A stretch of 64,000 bases of DNA from Azolla caroliniana (Eukaryota; Plantae; Polypodiophyta): the NCBI GenBank assembly GCA_043228905.1, contig JBHGNT010000015.1, positions 6,572,001 to 6,636,000 of the forward strand, read 5' to 3'. This document shows, piece after piece, positions 129 to 35,044 of the stretch (positions within the stretch are counted from its first letter, which is position 1; every line of letters begins with the position of its first letter). The position numbers were made by a program, and so were the translations under genes. Below the pieces are notes generated by a model, which saw only the letters and a program-made list of their open reading frames with translations, was not told the DNA's origin and did no database searches.

Positions 129-203
129 GCAGGTGCTGCAAGAAGTGCATGCTATTGTGATCGCACATCATCAATGCCACAAGACATTTTCACTCCTTGG
201 ATT
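129..203 (+). CDS. INTS8: Internal coding exon of Integrator complex subunit 8-like gene (gene begins upstream of window)
   Basis: ttgtag| acceptor and |gtgagt donor. The 75-nt phase-0 exon encodes AGAARSACYCDRTSSMPQDIFTPWI and splices in frame to 11245. It resembles metazoan INTS8 AGAVCSDFF..VPPDVYTDQV (recalled). Confidence 0.75.
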
Positions 204-382
204 GTGAGTCTCAAAATGTATTTTTGCACTTGTGTATAAAAGGATTCTCAATTTACGAATCAATGAGGTAAAGATAAAGCAAATATGTTTTAGGATGTTT
301 AATGTATCTTGTAAAAATATTATGAACTCACCTCTAAATGAAACAAAGCATAGTAATAGGCTAGCTACATCTGTTTGTGTAC

Positions 383-690
383 AAAATGATGTTTTCCTTG
401 AAAAGTTTCCTTATAAAGACTTTTGAAGATCTCAATTCCTTTTCATTTTCTGCTCTTCATCACTCCAGCCTTTGAAATCTCAGAGCAACTACCTTGCCAT
501 CCTCCTCAGCATCTCTTTTGAAAATGTCCATCCTATGCTCACATTCATGCAACCTTTGAAAATGATGTTTTTCTTGACAAGTCTACTCATAGAGACTTTT
601 GAAAATCTCAATTCCTTTTCCTGTTCTGCTCTTCCTTACTATAATCTTTGAAATCTTTGCGCAATTGCCTTGCCATCCTCCTAAGCATCA
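383..690. repeat. Degenerate direct duplication (~130 bp unit, ~176 bp offset) in intron
   Basis: aaaatgatgtttt...gacttttgaa.atctcaattcctttt...ccttgccatcctcct occurs at ~383 and ~559. Confidence 0.7.
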
Positions 691-1466
691 TGTTTCTATG
701 CCAGTCCTACACATTGTCTTTCCTTCTTCCTTTTCTTTCCTTCTTTTACTCATTTGAGTGCCTGATTAACTTTGGTCATTTTATCATTCTTGTTTCACTT
801 CTTCATGGACTCCCTTATCGTTTTGTTTTTTCTTAATCTCCCTTGCATTGACATTATCTCCAACAAGAATTTGTTTTTACTCTTTGCTTGACCATTTGTG
901 ATTTCATCCTCTTCCTTGTGTACTAGTTTTAGTTTGCATAGTTTCTATATGTCTCCAAGGTGGTATCCGCTGGCCATGTTAGAAAACCTGAACAGGAGGT
1001 TTGGTGCTAATTTGTGTTAATTACATCTCTAGAGAGGCTTATTAGATGTGAAAAACTTGCAATCATAAAGTCATGTCATATCTCATACATTCCCCAAGTC
1101 AGGCTGGGAGAAAAGAGAGATGTATTAACACCTAAAAGACTGAAATTGTTGGGGTAAAGGCCCTAAATTACCCCCTTATAGTGTGTACATGTATATAGGC
1201 TTATTTATAAAGGCCAAAAGTCACTTATCACTTTTTTGTTATTTTTGGGCCAAGTTCAGTGTGAACTTGGCCAACCCTAATTGGGTCATATAAAATATAA
1301 GTTAAAAACTTTTGGATCTCACTTCGAAAGGTGACCTCCTCCAACTATCTCTCTCTATGTTTTCAGCCATCGCTCTACTTCTACACCTACTGCTACTGTT
1401 AGGGATTCTATACTCAATGAAGAGATCAGGAGAAAAGCAAGTGGAGAAGGTGGCAGCTCAGCCAAC

Positions 1467-2192
1467 ATGGTTAGAGGTAGGACAGATAAGAGAAGTAACT
1501 ATGTACACAGGAACAAAAGTAGAGCCAAGGAAAGGGGAAATAGCACCATAGGTAAAAGCAATGATGTAACATGCTATGAGTGTGGCAGGAAAGGCCACAA
1601 GAAGCCCGATTGCCGCTATTACAAAGCAAAACTTGAAAGAAAGAAGAATTCTATAGATAAGAAAAAGGACAAGATTGATGCACATGACAACCAAAAGGAC
1701 AAAGAGAAGGCCAATTTGGCCTCCAATGTAATCATAGAGGAGTTGTTAGATGTTGAGGACATTTTATGTGCTACTTTTTCAACTGATGATACTTATGAAT
1801 GTGATGCCTCGCTAAATGTTCATTCGCAGGACATGTGCATCACTAAGAATGATCTTATTGATGCTTTGCTGACGATCAATGATGCATTGGCCCAAACATG
1901 GATAGTTGACTCTAGTGCGTCATATCATGTGACTCCCATCAAGGGGTGTTTTTCAACTTTTATTGTAGGCAGCCATGGCCATGTATACATTGGAAACAAT
2001 CATGCATGTTCCATTGAGGGTATTGGCATTGTGCATTTTTTTACAAATAGCACTAATGAGCTGGTTTTACATAATGTGCGTTATGTACCAGGGATCAAGA
2101 AGAGCTTGCCTTTTGTGGGTCAAATGGATATGCATGGTTATAGCATTCTCTTTGAGAGAGGATATGGAAAATCACAAAAGGTTCAAGGCTGA
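1467..2192 (+). pseudogene. Copia A gag C-terminus/zinc knuckle and aspartic protease
   Basis: CX2CX4HX4C knuckle, WIVDSSASYH, VLHNVRYVP. Confidence 0.85.
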
Positions 2193-2284
2193 TTATGAAA
2201 GGCACAAAGAAGGGAACTCTTTATTGTTAACAAGGAAATGCTATATCAGGCAAGTTTATTGTTTCGGCTGAAGTTCACTCCCAT

Positions 2285-3202
2285 ATGGAGTTGTGGCATA
2301 AGAAACTTGGCCATATGAACCAAAAGGGTCTCACCAGGCTTTGTAATCTAAAGAAGCTTGATGTTAAAGGTACAAAGCTTGACTTTTGCAATGAATGCCA
2401 ATATGGAAAGCAAGTGAAGCGTTCCTTTTACTCTAGTGTGTCTCGTAAGGCTTGTGTACTTGATCTTGTTCATTCTGATGTGTGTAGCATGCCCACCAAA
2501 TCTATGGGGGATAGTATGTATTTTATTTCATTTGTTGATGATTTCTCTAGAAAAATATGGGTTCAATTGCTTAAATCTAAGCATGAAGCCTTCACTGCGT
2601 TTAAGCGTTTTCATGCATTTGTGACCACCCAAACAGGCAGAAAACTGAAATGTTTGCGTACGGACAATGGTGGTGAGTTTACAAGTGTTGGATTCAAGAA
2701 ATTTTGTGAAATTTTAGGTATTAAGAGGGAGCTTATTGTTCCATACAGCCCCTCTTCTAATTGTGTGGTTGAACGATATAATAGGACACTTTGTGAGAGA
2801 GTGCGATGCATGTTGTCCACCGCTGATCTCCCACATGGATTTTGGGGAGAGGCACTCAAAACTGCGGTACATGTATGCAATAGATCCCTCCACGTGTCTT
2901 TAAAAGGTGACATCCCTGAAGAGGTTTGGTTTGGCAAACCTGCTTCGTATGATCACTTGTGTGTTTTTGGTTGTGAGGCTTTTGTACATATAAGGCCTGA
3001 GTTGAGAAACAAACTTGATGCCAAGTCCATTAAAGGCCTCTTCATGGGATATGGTGAAGAAGGTGAAATGGGCTACAAGATTTGGATACCCCAGCTCAAG
3101 AAGGTTATACGCAACCGAGATGTTGTTTTCAATGAGGCAAGGCTGCTTCAAAAAAATTGTGCCTCAAAAGATGACTATAAAAGGGTTAGATTTTCAGCAT
3201 GA
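2285..3202 (+). pseudogene. Copia A GAG-pre-integrase/integrase
   Basis: LWHKKLGH, VHSDVC, LRTDNGGEF, ERYNRTL, VFGC. Confidence 0.9.
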
Positions 3203-3499
3203 CCAGCCACCTGTTAGACCTAGTTTTGACCATCAAAATGCACCACAAAGGACTAAAAATATTGATGATCCAATGATTTTGGAGCCAGAAGATGATGGAC
3301 AGCAAGATGAGGATCCTGAGGGGAATCTGCAGCCAAGTAATAATGCTGAAAATGGTGCTGAAAATAATGGACAGCAGCCTAATAATGATGATTTAGACAT
3401 ACCACCTGATGCTGACCCATTGCTTGACAATGTGGATCATTGGGTGAGACATTCTACTCGTATTAGACGAAATGTGCGTAGATTTGACCCCTCGTTGCT

Positions 3500-4232
3500 C
3501 TACATAATGTTGACTGATGAGGAAGAACCTCTTATATATAAAGAGGCAAAGGCATGTGAGCACAACAATAAGTGGGAGCTTGCTATGCAGGAAGAGATTA
3601 AGGCTTTGCATTCAAATAATACTTGGGACTTGGTTAAATTGCCCAAAGGAAGGAAAGCTATTCCTAACAAATGGATATATAAAATCAAGATTGTTGATGA
3701 CAAACCTAAGTATAAAGCAAGGCAGGTTGCAAAAGGATATGCTCAAACTAAGGGCATAGATTTCCAAGAAGTGTTTTCTCCTGTGGTAAAAATTACCATT
3801 TTGCGAGTGCTATTTGCTATTGTGGCTGCACTTGATTTGGAATTAGACCAAATGGATGTACTTACAACTTTTTTTCATTGTGACATTGATGAAGAGCTTT
3901 ACATGCAACAGCCCAAGGGCTTTGTTATTCTTGGAAAGGAACATTTGGTATGTAAGCTCAATAGAAGCTTGTATGGGCTGAAACAAACTTCTAGACAATG
4001 GTACAAAAAGTATGATGCTCTTATGCTCAAACATGGGTATAAAAGAAGCCATGCTGATCACTGTTTGTACACTAAAAGAGATGAAACTGGCAGCCCAATC
4101 ATTCTTGTACTATATGTAGATGATATGCTCATTGTTGCCAAGAAAAGGAGCATTGTTGATGTCCTTAAAAAGCAGCTGAAATCTGCATTTTCAATGAAAG
4201 ACCTTGGGGAACTGAACATGTACTTGGAGTAA
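3500..4232 (+). pseudogene. Copia A reverse transcriptase (continues 4696-5120 and RNase H 10436-10799)
   Basis: YKARQVAKGY, QMDV, SLYGLKQ, LYVDDML. The frame resumes after each nested insertion (TRPDIAY, DSDMAGD, KHIDVRYHFIRE). Confidence 0.9.
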
Positions 4233-4252
4233 GAATTAGGAGACAAAGGGAG

Positions 4253-4690
4253 TGTTGAGATATCAAGCTCAACTTAGTTTAGTTATTTATTCAACCATGT
4301 AACTTCGTAGTTATCTAGATAGAATCTAGTTATGAGTGTTGACTATAACGCCTTAAATAGGACCTTGTACTTAAGTGGGATATTCTAGATCCTCCACTCC
4401 TAAGTACATTTAATATAGGACTTACACCTTAGTACCTATATTCTACTCACACATGTGCACCTTTGCACATGAGATATATATATACCTCATTGTGGGTATT
4501 TTTGTATTTGATGATGATGATAATGCTAATTTAATATAGAGTTAATCATCCCCCATCTTGTGTTACTCATAAGTGTACTTCTCTCTCTCTTCCTCTCACA
4601 CATACACACACATATCACTTAATCTTCCGCTTAACTTAATCACATAATTAGGTACTAATTAACCCATAGTTAATCACCTAATTCTTAACA
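4253..4690 (+). mobile_element. Solo LTR (438 bp, Copia family also seen at 44335-44781)
   Basis: TGTTGAGA...CTTAACA termini with 5-bp TSD GGGAG (4248-4252, 4691-4695). Closely similar to the PPT-preceded LTR at 44335. Confidence 0.93.
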
Positions 4691-5120
4691 GGGAGCAGCA
4701 CACATTGTATTTATTTTAAGAAAAATACATTGATAGGGTGCTGGACAGATTTTGTATGGCTTATGCAAAGCCTCTTGGAGTGCCATTACAGCCATATGAT
4801 AAAATCTCTACGGAAGATTGTCCTAAGACATAAGAAGCAATCAATGACATGCAAGGTGTACCTTATGCTTCAGCTTGTGGTTCACTTATGTATGCTATGG
4901 TTGCTACTAGACCTGATATTGCCTATCCAATGGGGGTTGTAACCTGATTTCATGGCCAGTTCATTATGAGGTACTTAAAAGGGACTAAAAATTAATGCCT
5001 ATGTTATGGAAAAGACCCATTAGAGCTGAAGGGTTTCTGTGACTCTGACATGGCAGGTGACGTGGATACACGGAAATCCACAAGTGGCTTTGTATTCACA
5101 CTTGCAGATGGTGTTGTATC

Positions 5121-5589
5121 TGTTGGAGGGTGGCAGCTCCAGCCCTGCACTCTCTTTCATCTTTATTATCTTTGTACTATATTCTCTCCCTTCCCAAATT
5201 CTTCCCTCTCTAGAATCTGCAACTCCTTTAATGCTTCTCTCTCTAGAATTTGTAATGCTTTAAATGCCTTCTTTTTTTCTCTTCTACTTTTTCCAAGATA
5301 TTCCATTTTATTCCTAGTTTTTTGTACCTGTTTGGTAGTACAAGAGCCACTTTACTACCAAACAACCATTTCACCCACTTTCCCCAATTTTGTATAAATA
5401 GGCTATACTAGCCTCTTTTGTAAAGACTTTTTTACTTTGGTTGCTACTTAAAAACAAGCTCTATTCCTTGGCTGTGTCTTTGCTCTTTGCAACCATTTTT
5501 TCTATTACTGTCTAACAGCCTTCTCACAGCTTGGTTGTGCCTATTTTGTTTTAAGTCTTCCGCTGCTGCTATTAACAGCTTTTCTCACA
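5121..5589 (+). repeat. 5' LTR of Copia B
   Basis: Direct repeat of 9964-10430, followed by the PBS. Confidence 0.96.
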
Positions 5590-5821
5590 TGGTATCAGAG
5601 CAGTGAGGTCTCCATATCCTCAGCCTGATTTTTTTTTTGCCAAAGAGCACACAGACCTATCTTCTTTTATCCCTCCCTCCCAACCCTACAGAGGAGGCTC
5701 TTCTGTTTTCTTTTCCCCTTATTTGAGCCTCACCTAGCATCTAGGGAGAAGTAGAAAGACCCTGAGTATCTACTTACAACTGCTGTAAATTGTCCAGCTG
5801 TAGCTCAAGAGGAGGATATCC

Positions 5822-8800
5822 ATGGCCTCACATGCCACCATTGTTTCATCAACCATTCCCCAACTCCCCAAAGAATCCATCTTGGATGGGAACAATTACT
5901 TGGATTGGGAGCTACAAATAAAGACCTTGCTACAATACCATCGTTTATGGAATGTAGTCAATGGTAGTGACAAGAAACCACCAGTAACTTCATCCTCTTC
6001 AACCAAATCAGTTGCTGGCTCATCTAACGCTGAGATTGAAGCTTGGCTAGATAAGGATTCTCGTGCTCATGCTTTCCTCATGTTTAATATTAAACCGAGC
6101 ATCACTTGTCAATTTCAAGATAAAGATGACGAGACAGCCAATGAACTATGGACAGCCATCAAAAGGAGGTATCATCGAGCTAATCATGCTCAAATGATAG
6201 CTATTGAAAGCCAACTTGCAAATCTCAAGATTCATGACACTCCCAACATCATGGATCAAATAACGGAATTTGTCACTCTCCAAAAGGAACTAGTTTCTTT
6301 GGGAAGCAAGTCCACTGAAGTTGAGTTTGTGCATCGTCTAATGATAAAGTTGCCTGAGTCATTCTCAGCCTTTTGTGACACCATTTCTCTTCTTCCCAAC
6401 ACACCTGACATGAATACATTTCTTGGTATGCTACAAGATAGGGCAATAAGGAAGAAAAGTGCTCAAACTTCCAATGAGACGCTTCTACATGCGACAAGTA
6501 AAGGCAAGTGGAAGCAAAATGGTAACTCCTACAACAAACCCAATCCAAGACCGCCAAACAACCCAGCTTACAAGGAGCTCACTTGTCATTATTGTGGCTA
6601 CAAAGGTCACATTCAGCCAGATTGTCGGAAAAAGAAAAGGGACAATGCTAAGAACTCTTCTTCTACCAGAAATCAACCTACACTGAAATCCAACTCGGCC
6701 CACTCAGCCAAAGAAACAGTTTTCCTTGGCATTGAGGAACATACTTCACATTTGGCTGGACCAACTCCTTCAACCATCGATGAGTGGTTAGTAGATAGTG
6801 GTGCCACTTCACACATGACCTATGACAAATCCATTTTGCATGATGTGAAGCCTAGCTCTTCCCAAATTTCTATAGGAGATGCCTCAAGCATTGAGGCTTC
6901 ATGTGTGGGTAATGTGTTTCTTGACAATTCTTCAAGTGAAGAACCTATCGTTCTTCAAGATGTGCTACATGTGCCTCGCATCTCTACCAACCTTCTTTCG
7001 GTTTACAAAATCACCAAGCAAGGTTATGGAGTCTACTTTGATAGCTCAGTTTTGGAAGTGATTGACACCAACAGCCTACAAATTGTAGCTAGTGGCACAC
7101 AAGAAGGGGGTTTATATCGCCTAAAAAGCTCCCATAGCCCCTTGGAAAACTCCAAATCTCATCATCTTCATCTTCTTCAAGGCTCTCATGCCTTGGTGGC
7201 ACAAGAAGATCCCACGTTGTGGCATGCTAGGTTTGGTCATCTCAACCTGTGATTCTCTTCAAAAGCTCTCCTCCTCCCAACTAGTTGAGGGTCTTCCTAT
7301 TTTCAAATCTCCCAATACCCCATGTGTTGCTTGTCTTCATGGCAAGCAACATCGAGAGCCTTTCCCTCATGAAGCCACTCATCGAGCAACATCTATCTTG
7401 GAGTTAGTGCACATGGATCTTTGTGGTCCCATGAAAACCACTACTCTTGGTGGTGCACGCTACTTCATGCTTATAATTGATGACTTCTCCTGCAAGGTTT
7501 GGGTTTATTTTCTTGTAGAAAAATCCCAAGCCTTCGCAAAATTTCAAGAATGGGTAGCTCTCGTGGAGAACGAGACATTAAAGAAAGTTCGAAAGATCAG
7601 GTCGGACAATGGTGGAGAGTTTATCTCCAAAGCTTTCCACCATTTCTGCTCTCAACGAGGCATTGCTCGCCAATTTTCTACACCCAATACTCCTCAACAA
7701 AATGGAGTCGTGGAAAGGAAGAACCGGACAGTCCAAGAGATGGCTCGTATGATACTATCTCAATCTGATCTTCCTCTCTCGTTTTGGGGTGAAGCTGTCA
7801 ACACAGCAGTCTACATCATCAACTGCTGCCCAACAAAAGCAGTTGCTAGAATGACGCCTGAAGAAGCATTTACAGGTGTAAAGCCCTCAGTATCTCATTT
7901 TAAAGTCTTTGGTTGTGATGCTTATGTTCACATTTCAGATCATAAAAGGACGAAATTTGAGTCCAAAACTAAGAAATGCAAATTTCTTGGTTATAGCACA
8001 CAATCTAAAGCATACAGGTTATGGGATTTAGAGTCAAAGTCCCTAGTCATATCTAGGGATGTTCATTTTGTGGAGTCTCAGCCGGATGACTCTAGGATTT
8101 TACCTGAGTTCATGGTTGAAATCCAAGCTCCTCTGGAATCTCCTATTTTAGATGAAGATGTCTCATCTTCAAGCCCACCATCTCCTCCTACTCAATCTCT
8201 AACTTCGCCAACAATTCAAACCTCTCCCTCAACTCCACTTGTTTCCACTCCCTCTACAAACCAGCTTCCACCACTTCCCAAGTGGCTTCAAGCCACCATT
8301 CGTGATTCTCATCTCTCCGATGCTGAACTTCATGAGTATACATCTGGTTCTCGAACACGTAAGTCACAACGGCCTCTTCACTCATGCAACTTTGCCTTAT
8401 TGTGCACTGTTGTGCAATCAAAAGAACCCACAACAGCAAAAGAGGCCCTTGTTCTTCCAAAGTGGAAAGCAGCAATGGAAGTTGAATTTGATTCCATTGA
8501 GCGGAATCATACATGGGAGCTGGTCCCACGGCCTCCACATTGACAAGTCATTGGATTGAAATGGATTTTCAAGACCAAATACCATGCTGATGGTACTTTG
8601 GATAAGCACAAGGCACGTTTAGTGGCAAAAGGCTACTCACAAGTTGAAGGAGTGGATTATGAGGAAACTTTTGCTCCAACAGCAAGGTACACATCTATCC
8701 GATGTGCGCTTGCACTTGCTGCTCACAACAAATGGGCCATTTTTCAAATGGATGTCAAGTCAGCCTTCCTTAACGGTGACTTGAAAGAGGAGGTTTATGT

Positions 8801-9956
8801 TGAACAGCCTCCAGGTTTCGAGATTTTAGAGCAGAAAAACATGATCTACAGGTTACACAAAGCCTTGTATGGCTTAAAGCAAGCTCCCAAAGCTTGGCAT
8901 GACAAAATTGATAGCTTCTTTCTTTCTCTTGGGTTTCAAAACTGTAATGCTGACAGCAATCTCTATGTTTTTTCCCAAGATAATTTGCTTTGCTTGATCA
9001 TATTATATGTTGACGACCTTCTAATTACAGGGTCCCTTGCATCTAAAATCGAGGAGGTCCGCGCTGACCTCAAAACAACCTTTGAAATGACTGATCTAGG
9101 ACTTCTCCATTATTTCATAGGTATGGAGGTCTATCAATCACATGGTGGTATCTTTCTCAGCCAACATAGGTATCTCAGGCAGCTCCTTGAGACCTATAGC
9201 ATGACAAATTGCAAGCCACTCTCCTGTCCAATGGATCCAAACTCAAAGCTATCTCGTGAAGACGATTCTCCCATATTTGAGGATATCACAAAATATAGGA
9301 GATTAATCGGGTCCCTTCTTCACTTAACTTATACCAGGCCTGATTTGTCCTATAGCGTGAGTATTCTCAGCCAATTCTCAACTGCTCCAAGACAAAGTCA
9401 TTGGCAAGCAGCTATTCGAGTTCTTCGGTATTTGGCCAACACACTCGACTATGGTCTATCTTTTAGAGGCGGCATTGAGCTTGTTGGCTACTCAGATGCT
9501 GATTGGGCAGGTGATATTGATTCTAGAAGGTCCACATCTGGCTATTGTTTTATGTTAGGTTCAGGCTTGATTTCTTGGAAATCGAAGAAGCAAAACTCAG
9601 TTTCTACTTCATCGACGGAAGCTGAATATCGCGCCTACTTGGATACTTGCTGTGAGTTGCTATGGTTGATGCAATTGTTTTCTCACATTGGTGTTTTGCA
9701 AGCCTCTCCTATTGCAGTTTTCACCGACAGCCAAAGTGCACGTGCCTTGGCACATAGCTCAGCATTTCATGGTAGAACAAAACACATCGAAGTGCACTAC
9801 CATTTTGTTCGTGACTTAGTGAAATCACAAGTCATCAACTTGGCATATTGCCCTACTCAAGAAAATGTGGCTGATTTATTTACTAAGCCACTTCCAAGGC
9901 AAACCATTGATCAGCTCCTTGATCGACTCAATGTTGGACCGCCGTTCTGGAGCTGA
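5822..9956 (+). pseudogene. Copia B gag-pol polyprotein (one frameshift near 7248, one TGA at 8541)
   Basis: Gag LDGNNYLDW, CHYCGYKGHIQPDC, WLVDSGAT, integrase IRSDNGGEF, RT LYVDDLL, RNase [19 protein letters not shown]. Split over ORFs 5822-7252, 7188-8543 and 8556-9956. Confidence 0.95.
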
Positions 9957-9963
9957 GAGGAGG

Positions 9964-10430
9964 TGTTGGAGGGTGGCAGCTCCAGCCCTGCACTCTCTTT
10001 CATCTTTATTATCTTTGTACTATATTCTCTCCCTTCCCAAATTCTTCCCTCTCTAGAATCTGCAACTCCTTTAATGCTTCTCTCTCTAGAATTTGTAATG
10101 CTTTAAATGCCGTCTTTTTTTCTCTTCTACTTTTTCCAAGATATTCCCTTTTATTCCTAGTTTTTTGTACCTGTTTGGTAGTACAAGAGCCACTTTACTA
10201 CCAAACAACCATTTCACCCACTTTCCCCAATTTTGTATAAATAGGCTATACCAGCCTCTTTTGTAAAGACTTTTTTACTTTGGTTGCTACTTAAAAACAA
10301 GCTCTATTCCTTGGCTGTCTTTGCTCTTTGCAACCATTTTTTCTACTGCTGTCTAACAGCCTTCTCACAGCTTGGCTGTGCCTATTTTGTTTTAAGTCTT
10401 CCGCTGCTGCTATTAACAGCTTTTCTCACA
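9964..10430 (+). repeat. 3' LTR of Copia B
   Basis: Direct repeat of 5121-5589, preceded by the PPT and followed by TSD GTATC. Confidence 0.96.
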
Positions 10431-11244
10431 GTATCATGGTGTAGTAGGCTGCAAAAAGTTTTTGCTTTGTCCACTACCGACACTGAATATATTTCAGTCA
10501 CTGAGGCTTCCAAGGAAGCGATATGGTTAGCATGTCTTTGCAATGATTTTAGTTTGCTTGAAAAGGCACCTATGCTTGGTTGTGATAGCCAGAGTGCCAT
10601 CTGTTTGGCAAATAATGTTATGTTTCATGCACGCACAAAACATATTGATGTGCGATATCACTTCATTCGAGAAGTGCTTGAGGATGGCCTTATCACATTG
10701 ATAAAGGTCCACACATCACAGAACCCTGCAGATGTACTCAGCAAGTGCTTACCCAAAGCACAACATCAGATATGTATACAGATGGTGGGAGTTACTTAGC
10801 TTAAAGGTGTCATTTATGCCTTTAAGTGGGAGGTTGGCATCAGAGCGAATTTAGGGTTTCAGAACTGCTGCGCAGGTTGCTGTACAGCATAGATAAGGTA
10901 TTCTACCGCGATAATCTTCAGTTTCATCGCGAAGATAAGGTATTCTATTGACAATTTCTGACCCTTTCAGAAATGGCCCACGGCCCACGAGACTCAACAA
11001 GATCATATAACTAAAAATATTTGTTTTTTCTTTGAGCACAGTGAAAGAATGTTATGAGTGAGCTAGAGAGAGAAATTATTAAGGTTCACGGGAAACCAAT
11101 ATTATCTATGGGATGGGGTTCAGCCATTGATGAAGATGATATGGTGTAAACCACCAAGCCAACAGCCATAAATACGGAGAGTGCAAAATGGAGAGGTAAA
11201 GAATGGTTCAACACTTTTTAACAATGGAATTTTTCATGAATCAG

Positions 11245-11412
11245 ATATCAAGGATGATAGAGTCGTGCAGAGCTATTGGGGCGGGATTCCAAGCAGTTAT
11301 ACTATGTCAATGTCTCCCTGTTCCAAATCTGGATTTGGCATTCCAAATATTGCAAGAGAGTGCAGCAACTACAGAGAAAGATGTTGATTTATATGCAGAA
11401 TGTATATGGGAG
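11245..11412 (+). CDS. INTS8: Penultimate coding exon of INTS8-like gene
   Basis: tcag| acceptor, |gtctgc donor, 168 nt, phase 0. It encodes ISRMIESCRAIGAGFQAVILCQCLPVPNLDLAFQILQE...YAECIWE, matching recalled INTS8 IKRMIKCC....QVAILCQFL....AFKSLQE...YIWD. Confidence 0.82.
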
Positions 11413-11496
11413 GTCTGCCAAAAAACATAAAAAACTAAATGTACAATATGGGTTTCTCTCGTCTTTGTATTTATAATGCGGTTTTTTCTGATTCAG

Positions 11497-11682
11497 GTGC
11501 CAATTTTGGAGCTTCTTATACACCTTTATTCTAAATCTGGTGATGGGATCCGTGTTGGTTGGTTGATTTCAGTGCTTCAGCAGCCTGCGTTGAACATCCA
11601 CAATCCCTTGAGTGTACGAAAATGCCATATCCAAGTGATGCAACAACGCTTTTTACAACAGTTTTATGATGAGATTTTATGA
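11497..11682 (+). CDS. INTS8: Terminal coding exon of INTS8-like gene
   Basis: Follows an 84-nt GT-AG intron with a T-rich acceptor. It encodes VPILELLIHLYSKSGD...QQPALNIHNPLSV...QQRFLQQFYDEIL*, matching the recalled INTS8 C-terminus VTILEYLTYLHHKRGE...QTELNASNPEEV...KKKFLQAM. Confidence 0.82.
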   Translation: MPILELLIHLYSKSGDGIRVGWLISVLQQPALNIHNPLSVRKCHIQVMQQRFLQQFYDEIL

Positions 11683-13019
11683 TGGATTTGAAGAAGCAAC
11701 AGGGTGATGTGGCAAACATAATGATTCATTGAAAAATGCTTTTTACGGCAATTTACTGTGATGAGATTTTGTGATGGATTAAAAAATAAAGTGTGTAGTC
11801 ACAGAATATAACATTTCAAGAAGTCATGCTGATGCTACAATGACAACGCTCACTTTTGGGGATGATATGTTTGGATTTGTGAAAAACACAATTTCATCTT
11901 TATTTCCTGACGTTGTGAGGTTTTACTGGTGGTTCTGTGATTCAGAAGGATTGATGCGTAACATATATAATGATTCGAAATGAAGTCTCAAGGAACAATA
12001 TCATTGTCTACTGATGGAAGGGTTTCTTACCACAAATCTGTGGAGCTGCCATCAAGGTTGTGTTATGGTGTAGAAAGACAATTTATGGCCATTTGACACT
12101 GCACTGTGCAGAAGTGTAATTTATTGATGCACAAATGTAGTTTGTGCTTGGGAAATTAACTGTCTTCATCTCATGTGTTCTTTACTGGAAGATACCTGAA
12201 GCTGATCTCAAGATAAAATTATTTGTTGGTTCTGCCTAAGTAAAGAGGCTATCCTATTGTTGTGAGAAACTACTTTTCACAATGGTTTTTGTAAAATAGT
12301 GAGCTTTTTACAAGAGCATGCAGTGCATATGCACTAAAAACCTTGTGTATATATAATTATTTGTATGATGTCTGTTATATATAATAATTATTTATGATGG
12401 CTTGTGTATTTTGATTATAAATGAAATAGTGCCAAAAGGTTCTTGTTGCTATATTGGCATCATGGAGTGAAAGAATTAGCATACATGGTAAATGATAACC
12501 CAAAATGTCAATTGGGAAGTGAAGTGGAAGTATAATTTTTTCTTCATCTTGTTTATCCTTTTTGACAGATTCTTGGTTAGATGACCAGGCATAATCCAAA
12601 TTTCTGATGAGCTTTTTCAAATATCATTAACATAATCACCCTATCCCTGGTGCAGATGTACTTCGAATGTGCCTTAACAGAACTATATTATAGATTATTA
12701 TTTTTTATCATTTAAACCAAACATCAGACCACATTTGGGTTATAAATTTGAAAAGAATTTTTTTTACAACAGAGCAGTTAGTGCATTATTTGAATCTGTC
12801 GTTGAAGTCTGTAGCTTTTTTCATAACCGTTGTCTATTAACTTCAAACTTAATCAAATTTGAAAATCATGTAACCCCAGTTTACTTGAAGGGAAATTACA
12901 TACGTTTGAGTCCAAAATATTGATAATGTTGTCCAGTGAACGAAATCAGACTCTGAATGAGTGAGATGTGGTCATTTTCATATCCTTCAACCTGAAATAA
13001 GCACAAACCCTGGAAAGAG

Positions 13020-13255: not shown

Positions 13256-16033
13256 CTAAAACCTCAGACAGAAATCATGAAGATGAAATTCGTCAACAAT
13301 GCTGGCTACCTCACCTCCATCAACGACCCTATCAACCGAAGAATATATACTTAACAATACTAAATGAGAAGCATAATGCCTGGGCTCTAATTCAAACACA
13401 TAATTTGCTGCTCGTTCTGCCCTCTGTAGATCATCTCTATACCGACAAGCACCAAGCAATGCCATAAAAGACACAGCTGAAGGTTGAAGTGGCATGTTAT
13501 TAATAATGAGCTCTGCCTCTTGTAAACGTCCAATCCTCCCAAGAAGATCAATGAAACAAATGTAATGGTCTACAACAAGGAAAATCGAGTAAGTTTCCAT
13601 CATAAAATTGAAGTATTGATATGCTTCTTGCAGAATACCAGAGTGGCTACATGCACTAAAAACATTGATAAAGGTAATCTTGTTTGGTGTTACGCCCTCT
13701 GCTTGCATTTGGCTAAATATCCCAAATGCTCCCATTGCAGAACCATGTTGTGTAGAAATAGCAATCATGGTATTCCACGAAATTGTGTTCCTTTCTTGCA
13801 TCATTTCAAAAATCTTTTGCGCATCATAGAAGCAGCCCAACTTTCCATACATATTCAGAATTGACGTGTTCAAAACAACATCTGCATGATAGCCACTTTC
13901 AATTATGTATGCATGCAACATCTTGCCCTCTGCAATCGCAAAACTATGTACACATGCAGATAGAACAGTTACAAGCGTGATGTGGTCCGGCAAAACGCCA
14001 TCTTGTTGCATTAGGTCGAAGAGTTCAAGCACATCTTCTAATCTCTCGAGATTCACATAAACTGCAATCATTGCATTCCATGAAACCTCATTGCGCACGT
14101 TCATCTCCCCAAAAACAGCTTGGGCATCATGTATGCTCTTACACCTGCCATACATGCTGACAATGGCCGTCGCTACCATTACATCACATTCATATCCACT
14201 TTCTAGGATGATAGCATGGATTTTCTGACCTTTGGTTAAGGCCCCCTCATCCATACATGCTGAAAGAATGTTAACATATGTAGCTTCATCTGGTTGTACT
14301 CCACCTTGCAACATCTGATCAAAATATGCAAAGGATTTGTTGCCTTCCCCATGTTGAGTATATGCAGCAATAATGGCATTCCATGTGATAGAATCTCTCT
14401 TAGACATACCGTTAAAAATTGATGTTGCAGTATGGATTCTATTACACTTGCCATACATATCAATCAGAGCATTTTGCAAATCAATATCCAGTTGCATGGC
14501 ACATGCATGAATCTGCGCACCCCTTTTCACTGCTGATCCAGATGGGTCATTCGCACATGCATTGACAATGCTTAGAAATGTAACATTGTTGGGAAATATT
14601 GCTTCTTCATGCATCTGATCAAATAAGTGGTAAGCATCTTCATTACATCCATTCTGTGAATATGCTGAAATCATCGTGTTCCAAGAGAAAATGTTCTTAT
14701 CAGCTATGCTGTGAAAAACTGATTGTGCATGCTCCATGTTCCTACATTTCCCATAGGTGTTAACAAGAATAGTTCCTAAGAAAACATCAACCATCGGTTC
14801 TGTACACAAAATAATAGCATGCATTTGCTTGCACAAAGATATGGCCCTTGAATTGCCACATGCAGAAAGGACAGCAGAGAATAAGATGTTGTCAGGCATC
14901 ATTCCTATCTGCTGCAAATGTAAAAAATGTTGTATTGCCTCTTTGTGGTGACCGTTCTGTGAATAAGCTGAAATCATAGAAGTCCATGTAACCAAATTGT
15001 ATTCTTCCATCTTATTAAAAACTATTTTTGCATTCAATAAACATCCACATTTCCCATACATATTGACAAGGGCATTTGCCACAGCCAATTTGGCTTCCAA
15101 ACTATGATTACAAGTGATGCGAACATGTACCTGCTTTCCTAAGCCTAAACTCGAAAGATTTTCACATGCATCAAATAAGCTAATGAAACTTACTTCATTA
15201 GGCATCCATGCTTCTTGCATCATCTGATCAAATAAGCTACGAGCTTCCATAGCCTTGCCACATTGCAACAATGCAGATATCAAGGCAGTCCAAGCAATCA
15301 CGTCATGCTCCCTCATGAGATCAAAGCAATGCATTGCGATCTCTATCCTGCCAAACTTGCCATACATATTGACCAAAGCAGTGGCTATGACAACATCCAT
15401 CTCGAATGGGCAGCCAACAATCATCGAATGCATCCGTAAGCCAACGTTGATAGTTGATAGTAAAGAACACGCATCAAAAACACTCACGAATGTAACCTTT
15501 GTGGGGAAAACCCCTTGTTGTTGCATTAGTCCAACGAGGAATAAAACCTTCTCAAACTCGCCATGCCTAGCAAAGGCCCTGACAATGAAGTTCCATGAAA
15601 ATATGCTTCTTCTTTCAAGCAAGTTCTCAAATACTTGGAAAGCATCATCAAGAGCACCACAAGTTCCATACATCAGCACAACATGGCTTCCTACAAAGGT
15701 ATCTGGCTCAAGGCCAATGTGTGTGATCATATGATGTGCGAATCGTCCATTTTGGAGGGATTTGGAGGTGTTCATAGAATTCAAGAGGGAGGCATAGTAT
15801 GAAAGGTCGAGTTTCTTAAAACGCATAGCGTGGCTTTCATTGGTCCCATAGCTCTTCGCCCTCTGGAGAAGATATTTTTCTGCTTTTTCTTTTTCTTCGT
15901 CGTCTTCTTCTTCTGAAGAAGAAGAAGACGATGGTGGAGGTGTGCCTTTGCTTGAGAAGATGGTAGAGAAAGATGTCCATCTCTGCTTTGTTCTTGGAAG
16001 GACTCTGAGCTCGATCCTTGCATAGAAATACAT
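13256..16033 (-). CDS. PLS-class pentatricopeptide repeat protein with C-terminal E domains (putative organellar RNA-editing factor), 925 aa, no DYW domain
   Basis: Long ORF with repeated P-L-S triplets (ALVNMYGKCG, VTWTSMISAY, P.xVTFxSxLxAC) and an E-type tail (HYICFIDLLGRIG...ALLGAC...FELEP). The N-terminus is Ser/Arg-rich and transit-peptide-like. Confidence 0.93.
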   Translation of the reverse strand: MYFYARIELRVLPRTKQRWTSFSTIFSSKGTPPPSSSSSSEEEDDEEKEKAEKYLLQRAKSYGTNESHAMRFKKLDLSYYASLLNSMNTSKSLQNGRFAHHMITHIGLEPDTFVGSHVVLMYGTCGALDDAFQVFENLLERRSIFSWNFIVRAFARHGEFEKVLFLVGLMQQQGVFPTKVTFVSVFDACSLLSTINVGLRMHSMIVGCPFEMDVVIATALVNMYGKFGRIEIAMHCFDLMREHDVIAWTALISALLQCGKAMEARSLFDQMMQEAWMPNEVSFISLFDACENLSSLGLGKQVHVRITCNHSLEAKLAVANALVNMYGKCGCLLNAKIVFNKMEEYNLVTWTSMISAYSQNGHHKEAIQHFLHLQQIGMMPDNILFSAVLSACGNSRAISLCKQMHAIILCTEPMVDVFLGTILVNTYGKCRNMEHAQSVFHSIADKNIFSWNTMISAYSQNGCNEDAYHLFDQMHEEAIFPNNVTFLSIVNACANDPSGSAVKRGAQIHACAMQLDIDLQNALIDMYGKCNRIHTATSIFNGMSKRDSITWNAIIAAYTQHGEGNKSFAYFDQMLQGGVQPDEATYVNILSACMDEGALTKGQKIHAIILESGYECDVMVATAIVSMYGRCKSIHDAQAVFGEMNVRNEVSWNAMIAVYVNLERLEDVLELFDLMQQDGVLPDHITLVTVLSACVHSFAIAEGKMLHAYIIESGYHADVVLNTSILNMYGKLGCFYDAQKIFEMMQERNTISWNTMIAISTQHGSAMGAFGIFSQMQAEGVTPNKITFINVFSACSHSGILQEAYQYFNFMMETYSIFLVVDHYICFIDLLGRIGRLQEAELIINNMPLQPSAVSFMALLGACRYRDDLQRAERAANYVFELEPRHYASHLVLLSIYSSVDRVVDGGEVASIVDEFHLHDFCLRF

Positions 16034-16169
16034 GGAGAAACCATGGATTCTACAGAACTGCTCCCTCTATTTTCCATATTTACATAAAATACCCTCGCCC
16101 GTTCCGTTTTAAATCTTCGTAAAGAAAAACAAAAGGAAAAAAAAGACTTATCGAAATTTGAATTCACCT

Positions 16170-20560: not shown

Positions 20561-20820
20561 GGTCTTAGTGCCTTGGCCTGGCCTCATTCATGATATCTAT
20601 TGTCCATCAGAAGCCAAGGGTCCAACACAAACTCTTAGAAATCAAAATTTCAAGCCAAACAAATATGTCTACATATGGTAAGAAATACAGAAGGATTTAC
20701 ACAAATGAATTGTGTTAATTTTTAAACAAAATTGTAAAAGAATCGTTTTCACTTAAGATATATGTATACTGTATACATATAAGGATCATAGAAAACAAAC
20801 AATTTCAGCTCAACAAAGAC

Positions 20821-23025
20821 TTGGAAGGATCTGTTCATTCTGGGTGGAGGCGGCCCCAAATCTTACCATGCATGGCATCAATTCGAAGAAGATGTACACA
20901 GAACTCAGACATGTCATCGCAGGTTTGCGATTACTCCTCAGATTGTAGCCGCCAGTGTACCCAAGATTCATGTGGCGAGGATATACCTTTTGTTAGGAAG
21001 AAGAAACAGAGAAGAACAATCCATGGCGTGTTCGGTGGCATCCATGGTGCCAAGAGGAGGAAATATGGTGGGGGCCAGAATGCCCTCATGGCCGCACTGA
21101 AATCTTGTGCCAAGAAGAAGGACCTAAATGAAGGCAGAAGAATTCATGCGGATATCTTGAATTGGGGTTTGCTCGAGAACGATGTTTATTTCGGTAATGC
21201 ATTAGTCAATCTCTATGTGAAATGCGGTGCGCTTGCAAGAGCAGCGGAAGTTCTCTACGAGCTTCAATTTAGGGATACAATCACTTGGAATGCACTAATT
21301 GCAGGATATGCTCAGTGTGGATATGGTAAAGAGGCACTTAGTTGTTTTGATTGTATGCAACGTGAAGGAATCACTCCTGACGCAGTCACTTTTGTTTGCA
21401 CCTTGAAAGCTTGTAGCTGTACAGGAGCAAATAGAAAGGGCAAAGCAATACATGCTGAGATAATGAGAGACAACACTCTGGAAACTAACCTTTTCATTGG
21501 CAGCGCATTGGTAGATATGTATGGCAAATGTGGTGAACTTGCTAAAGCACAAAGAGTCTTCGATGAACTTCAATCTCGGAATATAGTCTGTTGGAATGCA
21601 CTCATCTCAGGATATGTCCAATATGGATGCAGTGAGGAAGCATTGAATTGTTTTCAGCAGATGCAACGTGAAGGTATGTCTCCGGATCCCGTAACATTTG
21701 TTTGCATCTTGAAGGCCTGTGGCAATATAAATGCTGCTGATAAAGGCAGAGAGATTCACGATGAGATAGTTAGACTAAGGCTATTTTGTAAAGATACTTT
21801 CCTTGGCACTGCATTATTAGACATGTATGCCAAATGTGGTCAATTTTCAAAGGCAATGGAAGTGCTGGACCAGCTTCCATCGAGAAATGTGGTCTCTTGG
21901 AATTCCCTAATTGCAGGATATGTAAAACACAATCAATGTGAGGAGGCAGTGAAACATTATGATCAGATGCATAGAGAGGGATTATCACCGGATGCAGTTA
22001 CCTTTGTTTGTGTCTTGAAAGCATGTGCTGGCATACGGGCAGCTGAGAAGGGCAAAGAAATACATGATGAAATTGTGAGACTAAGGTTGCTAGAAAAGAA
22101 TACACTGATTGGCAATGCATTAGTTGATATGTATGCTAAGTGTGGTGCAGTTGCAAAAGCACAGGAGGTGTTTGATGAGCTTCAGGTCCGGGATGTTGTC
22201 TCTTGGACCGCACTAATTGCAGGCTACACCCAGCATGGGCATGCTGAAGAAGCACTCCACTGGTTTCATAACATGCAGCATGATGGCCCAAATCCAAATG
22301 CAATTACGTACGTTTGCATTTTGGGAGCTTATGCCAGCATGGGTGCAGTTGACAAGGGCAAAGAAATACATGGCGAGGTTGTTAGATCAGGGCTGTTGGA
22401 AAAGAATGTTTTACTTGGCAATGCATTGGTGGACATGTATGCAAAATGCGGTGCCCTTGATAAGGCACAAAAGGTGTTTGATCGACTCCCAATGAGAGAT
22501 ATAGTCTCCTGGAATGCACTCATTGCTGGATATGCCCAGCTTGGTAATGATAATATCACATATTTATTTGATAAAATGATGGGAGAAGGTGTAGATCCAG
22601 ATAGGGTCACCTTCACTGTTATTCTAAATGCATGCAGTGACTTGGGCATGTTAGAGAAGGGGCAAATGTGCTTTGAGAGGATGAGAGCAGACTATGGTAT
22701 GATCCCAACTTTAGAGCACTATACCTGCCTGGTTGACCTCTTTGGCCGTGCAGGCCACTTTGAGAATGCTGTTGCAGTGGTTGAAAAAATGCCAACTTCT
22801 GATTACCTTCCAGTTTGGACTTCTCTTTTAGGTGCTTGCCAGAAATGGGGAAACGTTGAGCTTGGAAGGCTAGCCTTTGAACATGCAATAAGGTTGGATG
22901 TGAAACATGTTGCAACATACGTTTGTATGAGAAATATATATATAGGTGCTGATATGCAAGATTATGCGGACAAGATTCATGCAATGAAAATGGAAATTTG
23001 CATGCACGGAGGCATCCTGGATTGA
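20821..23025 (+). CDS. PLS-class PPR protein with E domains, no DYW (start codon uncertain)
   Basis: 734-codon ORF with regular triplets (GNALVDMYAKCG, DVVSWTALIAGY, PDAVTFVCVLKAC) and an E-type tail (LEHYTCLVDLFGRAG...LLGACQKWGNVELGR). The track start is a TTG; the first in-frame ATG is near 20872, and there is a possible acceptor tttcag at 20808. Confidence 0.93.
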   Translation: MEGSVHSGWRRPQILPCMASIRRRCTQNSDMSSQVCDYSSDCSRQCTQDSCGEDIPFVRKKKQRRTIHGVFGGIHGAKRRKYGGGQNALMAALKSCAKKKDLNEGRRIHADILNWGLLENDVYFGNALVNLYVKCGALARAAEVLYELQFRDTITWNALIAGYAQCGYGKEALSCFDCMQREGITPDAVTFVCTLKACSCTGANRKGKAIHAEIMRDNTLETNLFIGSALVDMYGKCGELAKAQRVFDELQSRNIVCWNALISGYVQYGCSEEALNCFQQMQREGMSPDPVTFVCILKACGNINAADKGREIHDEIVRLRLFCKDTFLGTALLDMYAKCGQFSKAMEVLDQLPSRNVVSWNSLIAGYVKHNQCEEAVKHYDQMHREGLSPDAVTFVCVLKACAGIRAAEKGKEIHDEIVRLRLLEKNTLIGNALVDMYAKCGAVAKAQEVFDELQVRDVVSWTALIAGYTQHGHAEEALHWFHNMQHDGPNPNAITYVCILGAYASMGAVDKGKEIHGEVVRSGLLEKNVLLGNALVDMYAKCGALDKAQKVFDRLPMRDIVSWNALIAGYAQLGNDNITYLFDKMMGEGVDPDRVTFTVILNACSDLGMLEKGQMCFERMRADYGMIPTLEHYTCLVDLFGRAGHFENAVAVVEKMPTSDYLPVWTSLLGACQKWGNVELGRLAFEHAIRLDVKHVATYVCMRNIYIGADMQDYADKIHAMKMEICMHGGILD

Positions 23026-33567: not shown

Positions 33568-35044
33568 GCGTGTAGGACGAAGGCCCAAGACATCCGCAAT
33601 GATATTCTTCTTCTCCAAACGTTGAATCTCTTGCACAATCCGTGTTCGATCCTGTTATGACAACATGAGCTCAACTGTGTTGTCCGAAATGGGTGGGATA
33701 TCTGGGTTAGTTGCACGGGAGCCCCAGTTAAAATGTTTGCGACGGCCTGGCAATTGCACCTGATTTGCGGATGTCACGATGAAGGTTGAGGCAATGGAAG
33801 ATTCAGAGGGATTGGGCACACCGATTTGCTCGCAACTACAGTGCTAGGCGTAGCAACATAGGCTGAACAACAAACAAACATGTGGCCAACAGTTGAGCCA
33901 TACACGATAGGAGATGATCCGGTTGCGGCGGCAAGCTAGGCAGTAGAAGGCAAGGCGGTGACATGCTGCACAGCTTTCTTCATCACGTCCAAAGGATCTG
34001 GTTGTTGTTGTATGACTTTTATGTGTTTCCTCATATTTATACCTTTTCCTAGGCCCCTTGAATAGATGCGCCTTTCTAAAAAGCTCTCCATTCATTGGTT
34101 GTCCAAATCATGATAGTGCATGCACCTATCATTCCTTCTATCCAATCACATTAGTCCCCTTTTTAACATTAGTGAGCGTACCCTTCACTAATGTAAATAT
34201 TAGTGACCTACCCTCACCAATGTTGTCGTAAAGGGATACGACCGATTGGTGCCACCATGATTCCACACTTGCCTCAACTACAACCACGCATCTCGACTTG
34301 GTTCAGTGACCCAACACTCCTTGGAGATCCACCTGATTTGACTCATTGGAGTTGATTTACATTCTAAACTCAAAGTTCTTTAGTATTATTGTTCTTAGGG
34401 ATTATTTGCATTATTTTGGAACAAATGTTGTGTAGTCAAAACCATGTAATGTATTTCATGTGCACCACATAACGCACATGCAAAGTTTCTCTACATGTGT
34501 GCCACATGGCCCACATGCTTTATATCGCGCACATGCACAAGCTTCTCTAGGTGTGTGCCACGTGGCCTACATATAATGACATAAATTTAGTATAAGAGGG
34601 GAGGATTATTGCCATGGAGGGGGGGGGGGGGGGAACAATCAAAGAGTCCTATTTTGTAAAGGGTTTTTCTCTCGAAGAAATAGTGAATTTCCTATTTTGG
34701 CATTTCTTCTTCTTCTGCGTTTGAGGAGTAGCGTTGTACGGTATTTTCTTCATAACTCTCAATTCTGGCATCTTTTTTCGACGTTATATAGCTCCTTTGA
34801 AAGCTCTTGCAGAGGGTTTTCCAATCTGTGTTTGCACACTTAATTTGGTTACGTAGGTGGAACTATATAAGGTTTTTGTCTTCACGGGTAGGGCTGCAAA
34901 CCATTCGTGACTATTGAGATACTTCTGACTTGACTTCCCACTCTTCTCTTTCATCTTCTTATTTCCACTCTCCTGGATCAAAACTCCAACGGTTTCTCCT
35001 GGACACACCAGGCTCTTATACGCGACGTGCTTCGACACGACATG

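What the first reader, a model, noticed from the sequence alone, without database searches (positions are those of the whole stretch)
129..11682. Spliced INTS8 (Integrator phosphatase-module subunit) homolog in a land plant, hidden across an 11-kb intron
Seen: three GT-AG, phase-0 exons join into one uninterrupted peptide of about 140 aa ending in a stop; the ORF track shows only scraps of it. Recalled: the peptide aligns motif by motif with the metazoan INTS8 C-terminus (RMI..C, ILCQ.L, AF..LQE, IW.V.ILE.L, LN..NP, FLQ). In animals INTS8 helps recruit PP2A to Integrator to control Pol II pausing and termination. To my knowledge the characterised angiosperm Integrator-like (DSP1) complex has no recognised INTS8. 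Inference: this lineage may retain an Integrator-PP2A (INTAC-like) module that is little described in plants.
Basis: partly seen in the sequence, partly recalled or inferred. Interest (0 to 1): 0.8.

Follow-up and report, generated by a model that had tools for sequence, protein, structure and literature searches.

The report
Integrator subunit 8 in seed-free plants
These three spliced exons are the end of a gene for Integrator subunit 8 in a land plant, likely a fern; its full-length relatives in mosses, liverworts, a lycophyte and an alga carry a close variant of the motif that docks the phosphatase PP2A in animals, so seed-free plants likely keep a transcription-control arm that flowering plants may have lost.

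Summary
Confirmed. Exons 129-203, 11245-11412 and 11497-11682 join into a 142-aa open frame. Public contigs of three runs guessed to be RNA carry both junctions. The only Pfam match is INTS8 (PF25756) and the best PDB match is human INTS8. The gene continues upstream of the window. The 11,041-nt intron is a 1,213-nt intron plus 9.8 kb of nested copia elements; a related species shows the empty site. Orthologues occur in liverworts, mosses, lycophytes and conjugating green algae, with the same three exon boundaries in a Sphagnum-like locus. 28 of 31 long relatives carry WID[FY]LL where human INTS8 has its PP2A-recruiting WFEFLL. No named seed-plant protein was retrieved, but no named fern or animal protein either, so loss in flowering plants is suggested, not shown. 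Databases already auto-name bryophyte and lycophyte copies INTS8; ten literature searches showed no paper on them, but five Integrator papers were unavailable. PP2A binding, INTS5/INTS6 and this gene's own N-terminus were not testable. The scan earlier found INTS8 in a fungus (e1-9934027), not in a plant. Verdict: new member of a known family, with a testable evolutionary lead.

The parts
129..203 (+). INTS8 coding exon, third from last (25 aa); spliced to an upstream exon outside the window
   Evidence: AG/GT ends; covered exactly by spliced contigs in X7, X15, X18; same 75-nt exon in locus L003. Alone it gave no Pfam or PDB hit.
204..11244 (+). GT-AG intron, 11,041 nt; 1,213 nt without the outer insertion
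1147..10969 (+). Outer copia-type insertion, decayed, TG..CA ends, target duplication GAAAT; no LTR pair found
   Evidence: Pfam Pol_BBD, rve, SH3_retrovirus, RVT_2; ends; empty site in contigs of X15 and X18 (loose ends at 10982)
5121..10430 (+). Inner, younger copia LTR element inserted in the RNase H region of the outer one; LTRs 5121-5589 and 9964-10430, target duplication GTATC, primer-binding site at 5590
   Evidence: LTRs 461 of 467 aligned bases identical, 2 gap columns; gag, Pol_BBD, rve, RVT_2 in three frames
11245..11412 (+). INTS8 coding exon, second from last (56 aa)
   Evidence: PF25756 40.9 bits, cut-off 27, E 1.5e-10; human INTS8 881-934; spliced contigs
11413..11496 (+). GT-AG intron, 84 nt, with an in-frame stop
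   Evidence: skip of 84 nt in 3 of 4 runs; stop in frame
11497..11682 (+). Last INTS8 coding exon (61 aa + TGA)
   Evidence: PF25756 26.4 bits (just under the cut-off of 27), E 3.7e-6; no meaningful PDB hit alone; same 186-nt exon in L003
11683..12336 (+). Likely 3' untranslated region; true end not shown
   Evidence: contigs continue from the last exon to 12123-12158 in one piece and other pieces reach 12281-12336; contigs cannot show an RNA end

Best explanation
The three exons are the spliced 3' end of an INTS8 gene in a land plant, likely a fern, and the protein likely works as in animals: a helical-repeat scaffold predicted to sit in the Integrator shoulder with INTS5 and to dock PP2A through an N-terminal WIDF-type motif, which would let Integrator dephosphorylate RNA polymerase II while it cleaves snRNA ends and stalled transcripts. 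Shown: exon structure, splicing, family, orthologues in other seed-free plants and their motif. Inferred: fern host, full length and motif in this gene, PP2A binding, presence of INTS5/INTS6, and vertical descent from an early eukaryote with later loss or strong divergence in flowering plants. The long intron is a by-product of two nested retrotransposon insertions that splicing removes.
For: Splicing. Family: 15 of 16 representatives carry PF25756; profile of 14 plant/algal proteins vs human INTS8, E 8e-40, three collinear stretches from residue 7 to 991; the five best Foldseek matches of a moss-type model are chains of human Integrator structures, E 1.5e-12 to 2.8e-9; next 7e-5. Orthology: the spliced peptide is 67% identical to P0003 and 53-62% to named bryophyte and lycophyte proteins; window + P0003 form a group with bootstrap 100, beside lycophytes at 78; identical exon boundaries in a Sphagnum-like locus. 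Motif: WIDFLL 18 and WIDYLL 10 of 31 stored proteins over 1000 aa (isoforms and near-copies counted), aligned to human WFEFLL; WFEF-to-alanine blocks PP2A recruitment (PMC8091971, passages). Length: a 3,194-nt contig of a related species has 2,320 nt upstream of exon 129-203. Seed plants: 0 of 6 organism-labelled hits and 0 of 8; the three nearest large Atlas clusters of a moss INTS8 are oomycete, nematode and chordate, while a Streptophyta-led cluster appears only for ZIP4.
Against: This gene's own N-terminus lies outside the window and was not seen. The motif is not identical to the animal one (F to I, E to D, last F to Y in many mosses), and its sequence alignment to human is weak on its own (domain score 0.1 bits, 7.2 bits). 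No genome is held, so INTS5, INTS6 and the other subunits were not checked. The fold match has low TM-scores (0.25-0.26 by query, rmsd about 28 A) on a model of pTM 0.41. The searches that returned no seed plant also returned no named fern, hornwort or animal protein, so their reach ends near 45-50% identity; 10 of 16 and 7 of 15 hits bear no organism label; P0003 is unnamed and could be a gymnosperm; the Atlas shows 10 of 30 rows. The host clade rests on a tree to which the window gives only 142 residues, on recalled fern-like PPR motifs and on unchecked earlier notes. 'RNA' is the tool's guess for the runs.
Confidence: 0.7

Rival explanations
1. It is INTS8, but in plants it is only a structural subunit for snRNA 3' processing and no longer recruits PP2A; the conserved N-terminal motif is a folding element.
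For: The motif differs from WFEF at two or three of four positions; it starts a predicted helix (H20-26) that could be conserved for packing; plants are reported to lack NELF (PMC7244574, PMC8091971, passages), so animal-type pausing may not apply.
Against: The motif is the same in a conjugating alga, liverworts, mosses, a lycophyte and P0003 although mean column identity is only 39%; the changes are conservative; Arabidopsis dsp1/dsp4 mutants already link the plant complex to promoter-proximal termination (PMC7244574, passages).
Confidence: 0.2
2. INTS8 is present throughout land plants, flowering plants included, but seed-plant copies have diverged past the reach of these searches; this gene is then an ordinary housekeeping orthologue with no lineage contrast. 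(Compatible with the best explanation on function; it replaces only the loss clause.)
For: No named fern, gymnosperm or animal protein was retrieved either; the word-based searches with single exons missed relatives known to exist; the Arabidopsis survey of 2016 used plain homology and found partial matches of about 25% similarity (PMC5079582, passages).
Against: The exon-2 region is conserved enough to retrieve algae at 43-55% identity from 1.84 billion proteins, and flowering plants are far better sampled; no Streptophyta-led INTS8 cluster among the rows shown; 5 of 5 metagenome loci score best with moss proteins (no positive control for flowering plants).
Confidence: 0.25
3. The locus is a decaying or disrupted copy: the 9.8-kb nested insertion has inactivated this allele and the spliced contigs come from other alleles or species.
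For: The insertion is absent in organism D; spliced contigs differ from the window at a few bases, so none is shown to come from an allele with the insertion; upstream exons were not seen.
Against: All splice sites and the frame are intact; of the 7 distinct codon positions changed in the listed part of the variant tables, 5 are silent (the table was cut, 59 rows unseen); a run of the best-matching organism label (X7, organism A) is spliced at both junctions.
Confidence: 0.05

Closest known systems
Human INTS8 (PDB 7cun_H, 7pks, 7ycx, 8rc4, 9eof; Pfam PF25756 TPR_INTS8)
   Same: C-terminal helical repeats align along 830-991; N-terminal motif region and a middle block align collinearly in the plant orthologues
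   Different: Plant and algal proteins are longer (1,100-1,800 vs 995 aa) with low-confidence insertions; motif reads WIDF/WIDY instead of WFEF; binding partners untested
Auto-annotated INTS8 proteins of bryophytes and lycophytes (KAL2653025.1 Riccia fluitans, EFJ19480.1 Selaginella, CAK9883221.1 Sphagnum jensenii, KAJ7548740.1 Diphasiastrum; JGI/IMG 'integrator complex subunit 8')
   Same: 53-62% identity over the spliced peptide, same last three exon boundaries in a Sphagnum-like locus
   Different: This copy belongs to another lineage (with unnamed P0003), has no full-length protein on record in the searches made (only exon-2 fragments P0001, P0002, P0027, P0028) and has a transposon-inflated intron
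Arabidopsis DSP1 complex (DSP1-4 + CPSF73-I; PMC5079582, PMC6670113, PMC10533338, passages)
   Same: Plant Integrator-like machinery for snRNA 3' ends; the likely host complex of this protein
   Different: Described with INTS7/3/4/9-like subunits and an INTS11-like nuclease only; 'INT8', 'INT5', 'INT6' do not occur in the main text of PMC5079582 and PP2A does not occur in PMC10533338
Oomycete, nematode and arthropod INTS8 clusters (ESM Atlas) and the fungal INTS8 noted earlier in this scan (e1-9934027)
   Same: Same Pfam families; show that INTS8 is not confined to animals
   Different: Other eukaryotic lineages; not aligned here

Membership tests
INTS8 (PF25756) | C-terminal TPR_INTS8 region above the curated cut-off, best and only family | tested here: met
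   exon 2: 40.9 bits vs cut-off 27; exon 3: 26.4 bits, adjacent profile positions; no other family at E<=10
INTS8 (PF25756) | Best solved-structure match by sequence is human INTS8 | tested here: met
   exon 2 E 0.053, only hit; exons 1 and 3 alone no meaningful hit; P0003 E 7e-24; profile E 8e-40
INTS8 (PF25756) | Full-length protein of about 1,000 aa or more | tested here: inconclusive
   gene runs off the window; a related species' contig has 2,320 nt upstream, sequence not readable; orthologues are 1,112-1,800 aa
INTS8 (PF25756) | All-helical solenoid fold matching INTS8 | tested here: inconclusive
   model of moss-type orthologue P0052: all-helical, pLDDT 57, pTM 0.41; five best Foldseek hits are Integrator chains but TM 0.25-0.33; Atlas model of the Selaginella fragment matches an INTS8 cluster at TM 0.79
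Integrator-PP2A (INTAC) | N-terminal WFEF-type PP2A-recruiting motif in INTS8, in plant orthologues | tested here: met
   WID[FY]LL in 28 of 31 stored proteins over 1000 aa, aligned to human WFEFLL; a variant, not the identical motif
Integrator-PP2A (INTAC) | The same motif in this gene | not testable with these tools
   N-terminal exons lie outside the window; no genome held
Integrator-PP2A (INTAC) | INTS5 and INTS6 encoded in the same genome | not testable with these tools
Integrator-PP2A (INTAC) | Physical association with PP2A A and C subunits without a B subunit | not tested
Ty1/copia LTR retrotransposon (inner element) | TG..CA LTR pair, target duplication, primer-binding site, gag-protease-integrase-RT order | tested here: met
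Ty1/copia LTR retrotransposon (outer element) | LTR pair at both ends | tested here: not met
   copia-type pol domains and a 5-bp target duplication are present, but the two ends show no similarity

The most novel reading that the evidence does not exclude
Seed-free plants and their algal sisters keep an animal-like Integrator-PP2A arm (INTS8 with a working PP2A-docking motif, with INTS5/INTS6) that seed or flowering plants lost, so the small DSP1 complex of Arabidopsis is a reduced derivative and not the plant norm; Physcomitrium, Marchantia and Ceratopteris would allow a test of what Integrator-bound PP2A does in organisms reported to lack NELF.
Probability: 0.5. Interest if true: 0.68.

Novelty: new member of a known kind. 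Interest (0 to 1): 0.47.

Why it matters
Reviews call Integrator restricted to animals (PMC9006982, passage) or give plants a smaller version without the PP2A-docking subunits (PMC10533338, passage). An expressed INTS8 with a conserved docking-type motif across algae, bryophytes, lycophytes and a likely fern argues that the phosphatase arm is ancient and was kept in most plant lineages. That makes a direct test possible in genetically tractable moss and liverwort models and raises the question of what replaced it in flowering plants. The gene itself is an ordinary orthologue whose relatives are already named in databases; the value lies in the distribution. It also shows why such genes are missed in large plant genomes: short exons separated by transposon-filled introns.

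Tried and rejected
No whole genome is held, so upstream exons and other subunits could not be sought. The look-up of sequencing runs listed no holder on record as RNA; RNA status of X7, X15, X18, X20 is the tool's guess. X20 showed neither junction (11 of 30 bins covered). Word-based protein searches with single exons were nearly blank (1 hit of 15 candidates; 0 of 3) and missed relatives later found, so they carry no weight. Exon 1 alone: no Pfam or PDB hit; exon 3 alone: three irrelevant PDB hits at E about 1. P0015 has no PF25756 match and was dropped as spurious. The Atlas does not hold exon 3 or P0001. Exact look-up of five start variants of the two neighbouring PPR proteins found none in the collection, so the host clade was not fixed that way. 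The metagenome scan gave 5 loci of 161 pattern matches, all best matched by moss proteins; without a flowering-plant control this is weak. The tree used 19 sequences; P0010, P0007 (replaced by isoform P0025) and the single-exon fragments were left out. No complex was folded, for want of a partner sequence. Five Integrator papers were not held (PMC4406282, PMC4408249, PMC8119304, PMC7660970, PMC3969742). Rejected: chance frame (junction contigs); animal or fungal contamination (plant-type nearest relatives, PPR neighbours, intron positions shared with a moss-like locus); another TPR family (Pfam, PDB, Atlas all name INTS8); a special role for the long intron (empty site in a relative).
Full report
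Observation. The three exons are present exactly as described: 129-203, 11245-11412 and 11497-11682, each preceded by AG, the first two followed by GT, all phase 0. Joined they give 142 residues and a stop. Splicing is supported independently. On the stretch 10900-12700, contigs of 3 of 4 runs guessed to be RNA skip the 84-nt intron with GT..AG ends, and the same three carry, before position 11245, the last 30 bases of exon 129-203. On 1-1000, 3 of 3 such runs cover only 127-203 as exon and continue with the first bases of exon 11245, while a DNA-guess run covers the stretch unspliced. In X7 and X18 the contig coordinates are continuous across the 11-kb gap. The same contigs show another exon upstream, so the gene begins before the window; one contig of a related species has 2,320 nt upstream of exon 129-203.

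Identity. Pfam PF25756 (INTS8 TPR repeats) is the only family matched, by exon 2 (40.9 bits, cut-off 27) and exon 3 (26.4 bits) at adjacent profile positions; exon 1 alone matches nothing. Exon 2's only PDB hit is human INTS8 881-934 (E 0.053). A HMMER search of 1.84 billion representatives with exon 2 gave 16 proteins, 15 of them PF25756-positive. The closest long one, unnamed P0003 (1,253 aa, 67% identical to the spliced peptide), hits human INTS8 at E 7e-24; a profile of 14 long relatives does so at E 8e-40, in three collinear stretches from the N- to the C-terminus. An AlphaFold model of a moss-type orthologue is of low overall confidence (pLDDT 57, pTM 0.41), yet its five best Foldseek matches are chains of human Integrator structures (E 1.5e-12 to 2.8e-9, next hit 7e-5; TM only 0.25-0.33).

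Distribution. Organism labels among the hits are liverworts (Riccia, Marchantia, Calypogeia), mosses (Sphagnum, Ceratodon), lycophytes (Diphasiastrum, Selaginella) and conjugating green algae (Spirogloea, Closterium, and a record labelled Mesen1, which I read as Mesotaenium from memory). Of 16 hits, 6 have an organism label and none is a seed plant; of 15 hits among 1,947 candidates, 8 have one and none is a seed plant. In a tree of 19 sequences the unnamed long hits fall with mosses or liverworts, except P0003, which groups with the window (bootstrap 100) beside the lycophytes (78); P0017 served as root and is unplaced. A Sphagnum-like genomic locus has exons of the same 75, 168 and 186 nt with the same boundaries, so the exon structure is ancestral. 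In the ESM Atlas, which holds only clusters of 50 or more members, the three nearest clusters of a full-length Sphagnum INTS8 are led by oomycetes, nematodes and chordates; a Streptophyta-led cluster shows only for another TPR protein, ZIP4 (10 of 30 rows shown). This fits absence from flowering plants. Against over-reading: these sequence searches also returned no named fern, hornwort, gymnosperm or animal protein, so a fast-evolving seed-plant copy is not excluded. The host is a vascular plant by the tree and likely a fern by recalled PPR motifs and unchecked earlier notes on this genome; it was not identified by any search.

Mechanism. In animals INTS8 lies in the shoulder of Integrator, pairs with INTS5 and recruits PP2A through a WFEF motif; INTS2/5/6/8 position PP2A to dephosphorylate the Pol II tail (PMC8091971, PMC7980224, PMC11062913; passages). 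The plant orthologues carry WIDFLL (18) or WIDYLL (10) near their N-terminus in 28 of 31 stored proteins over 1,000 aa (isoforms and near-copies included; the other three appear to start further downstream), aligned with human WFEFLL. I therefore think it most likely that this protein docks PP2A on a plant Integrator. That step is inferred: this gene's own N-terminus is outside the window, the motif is a variant, no genome was available to look for INTS5 and INTS6, and binding was not modelled.

The intron. Of 11,041 nt, 9,823 nt (1147-10969) are one insertion with target duplication GAAAT, coding copia-type pol domains; inside it lies a younger copia element (5121-10430, target duplication GTATC, LTRs identical at 461 of 467 aligned bases). 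Contigs of two runs of a related organism join the flanks directly, so the intron is about 1.2 kb there. Its length has no bearing on the gene's function.

What is known. Arabidopsis has a DSP1 complex with INTS7/3/4/9-like subunits and an INTS11-like nuclease (PMC5079582, PMC6670113, passages), called a smaller version of Integrator (PMC10533338, passage), and it contributes to promoter-proximal termination (PMC7244574, passages). One review calls Integrator restricted to metazoans (PMC9006982, passage). PMC11870849 (passages) added nothing on plants. Ten full-text searches (terms combining INTS8 or Integrator with Arabidopsis, plants, Marchantia, Physcomitrella, Selaginella, bryophytes, angiosperms, fern, WFEF) listed no paper on INTS8 in seed-free plants, judged from titles and abstract starts. 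No supplements were read; five Integrator papers were not held, and one of them may, by my recall, chart subunits across eukaryotes. Databases already name several bryophyte and lycophyte proteins INTS8 automatically, and the Atlas holds oomycete INTS8 clusters. This scan earlier noted INTS8 in an early-branching fungus (e1-9934027; not checked here).

Verdict. Real, spliced, correctly identified: a new member of a known family. The gene alone is ordinary; the pattern of a conserved PP2A-docking-type motif across seed-free plants with apparent absence from flowering plants is a modest, testable lead. Interest 0.47; the most novel reading has probability about 0.5 and would deserve about 0.68.

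Noticed in passing
window 1147-10969: The outer copia-type insertion has TG..CA ends and a clean 5-bp target duplication but no LTR pair; it starts near the middle of gag, and its purine tract (10824) is followed at once by a primer-binding-site-like word (10835). It looks circularly permuted or LTR-deleted.
   Followed up: partly
window 11642-11688 and 11732-11780: The last codons of the gene are partly duplicated (82% over 49 nt) in the 3' untranslated region.
   Followed up: no
window 13256-16066 (-) and 20719-23025 (+): Two long intron-less PPR genes; the first is convergent with the INTS8 gene. Their repeat wording resembles fern PPR proteins (recalled).
   Followed up: partly
window 383-513 and 559-689: Two 131-nt copies, 84% identical, in the old part of the intron; a contig of X15 lacks about 28 bases there.
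   Followed up: no
window 26783-63006: Beyond 24 kb the window is almost all transposon remains by inspection of the ORF list (LINE-like, gypsy-like on both strands, copia-like), with repeat pairs at 34224/40827 and 53162/54716; families not scanned.
   Followed up: no
proteins P0055, P0068-P0073: Middle fragments of Sphagnum INTS8 are named 'phage gp36-like protein' in JGI/IMG, a mis-annotation.
   Followed up: yes
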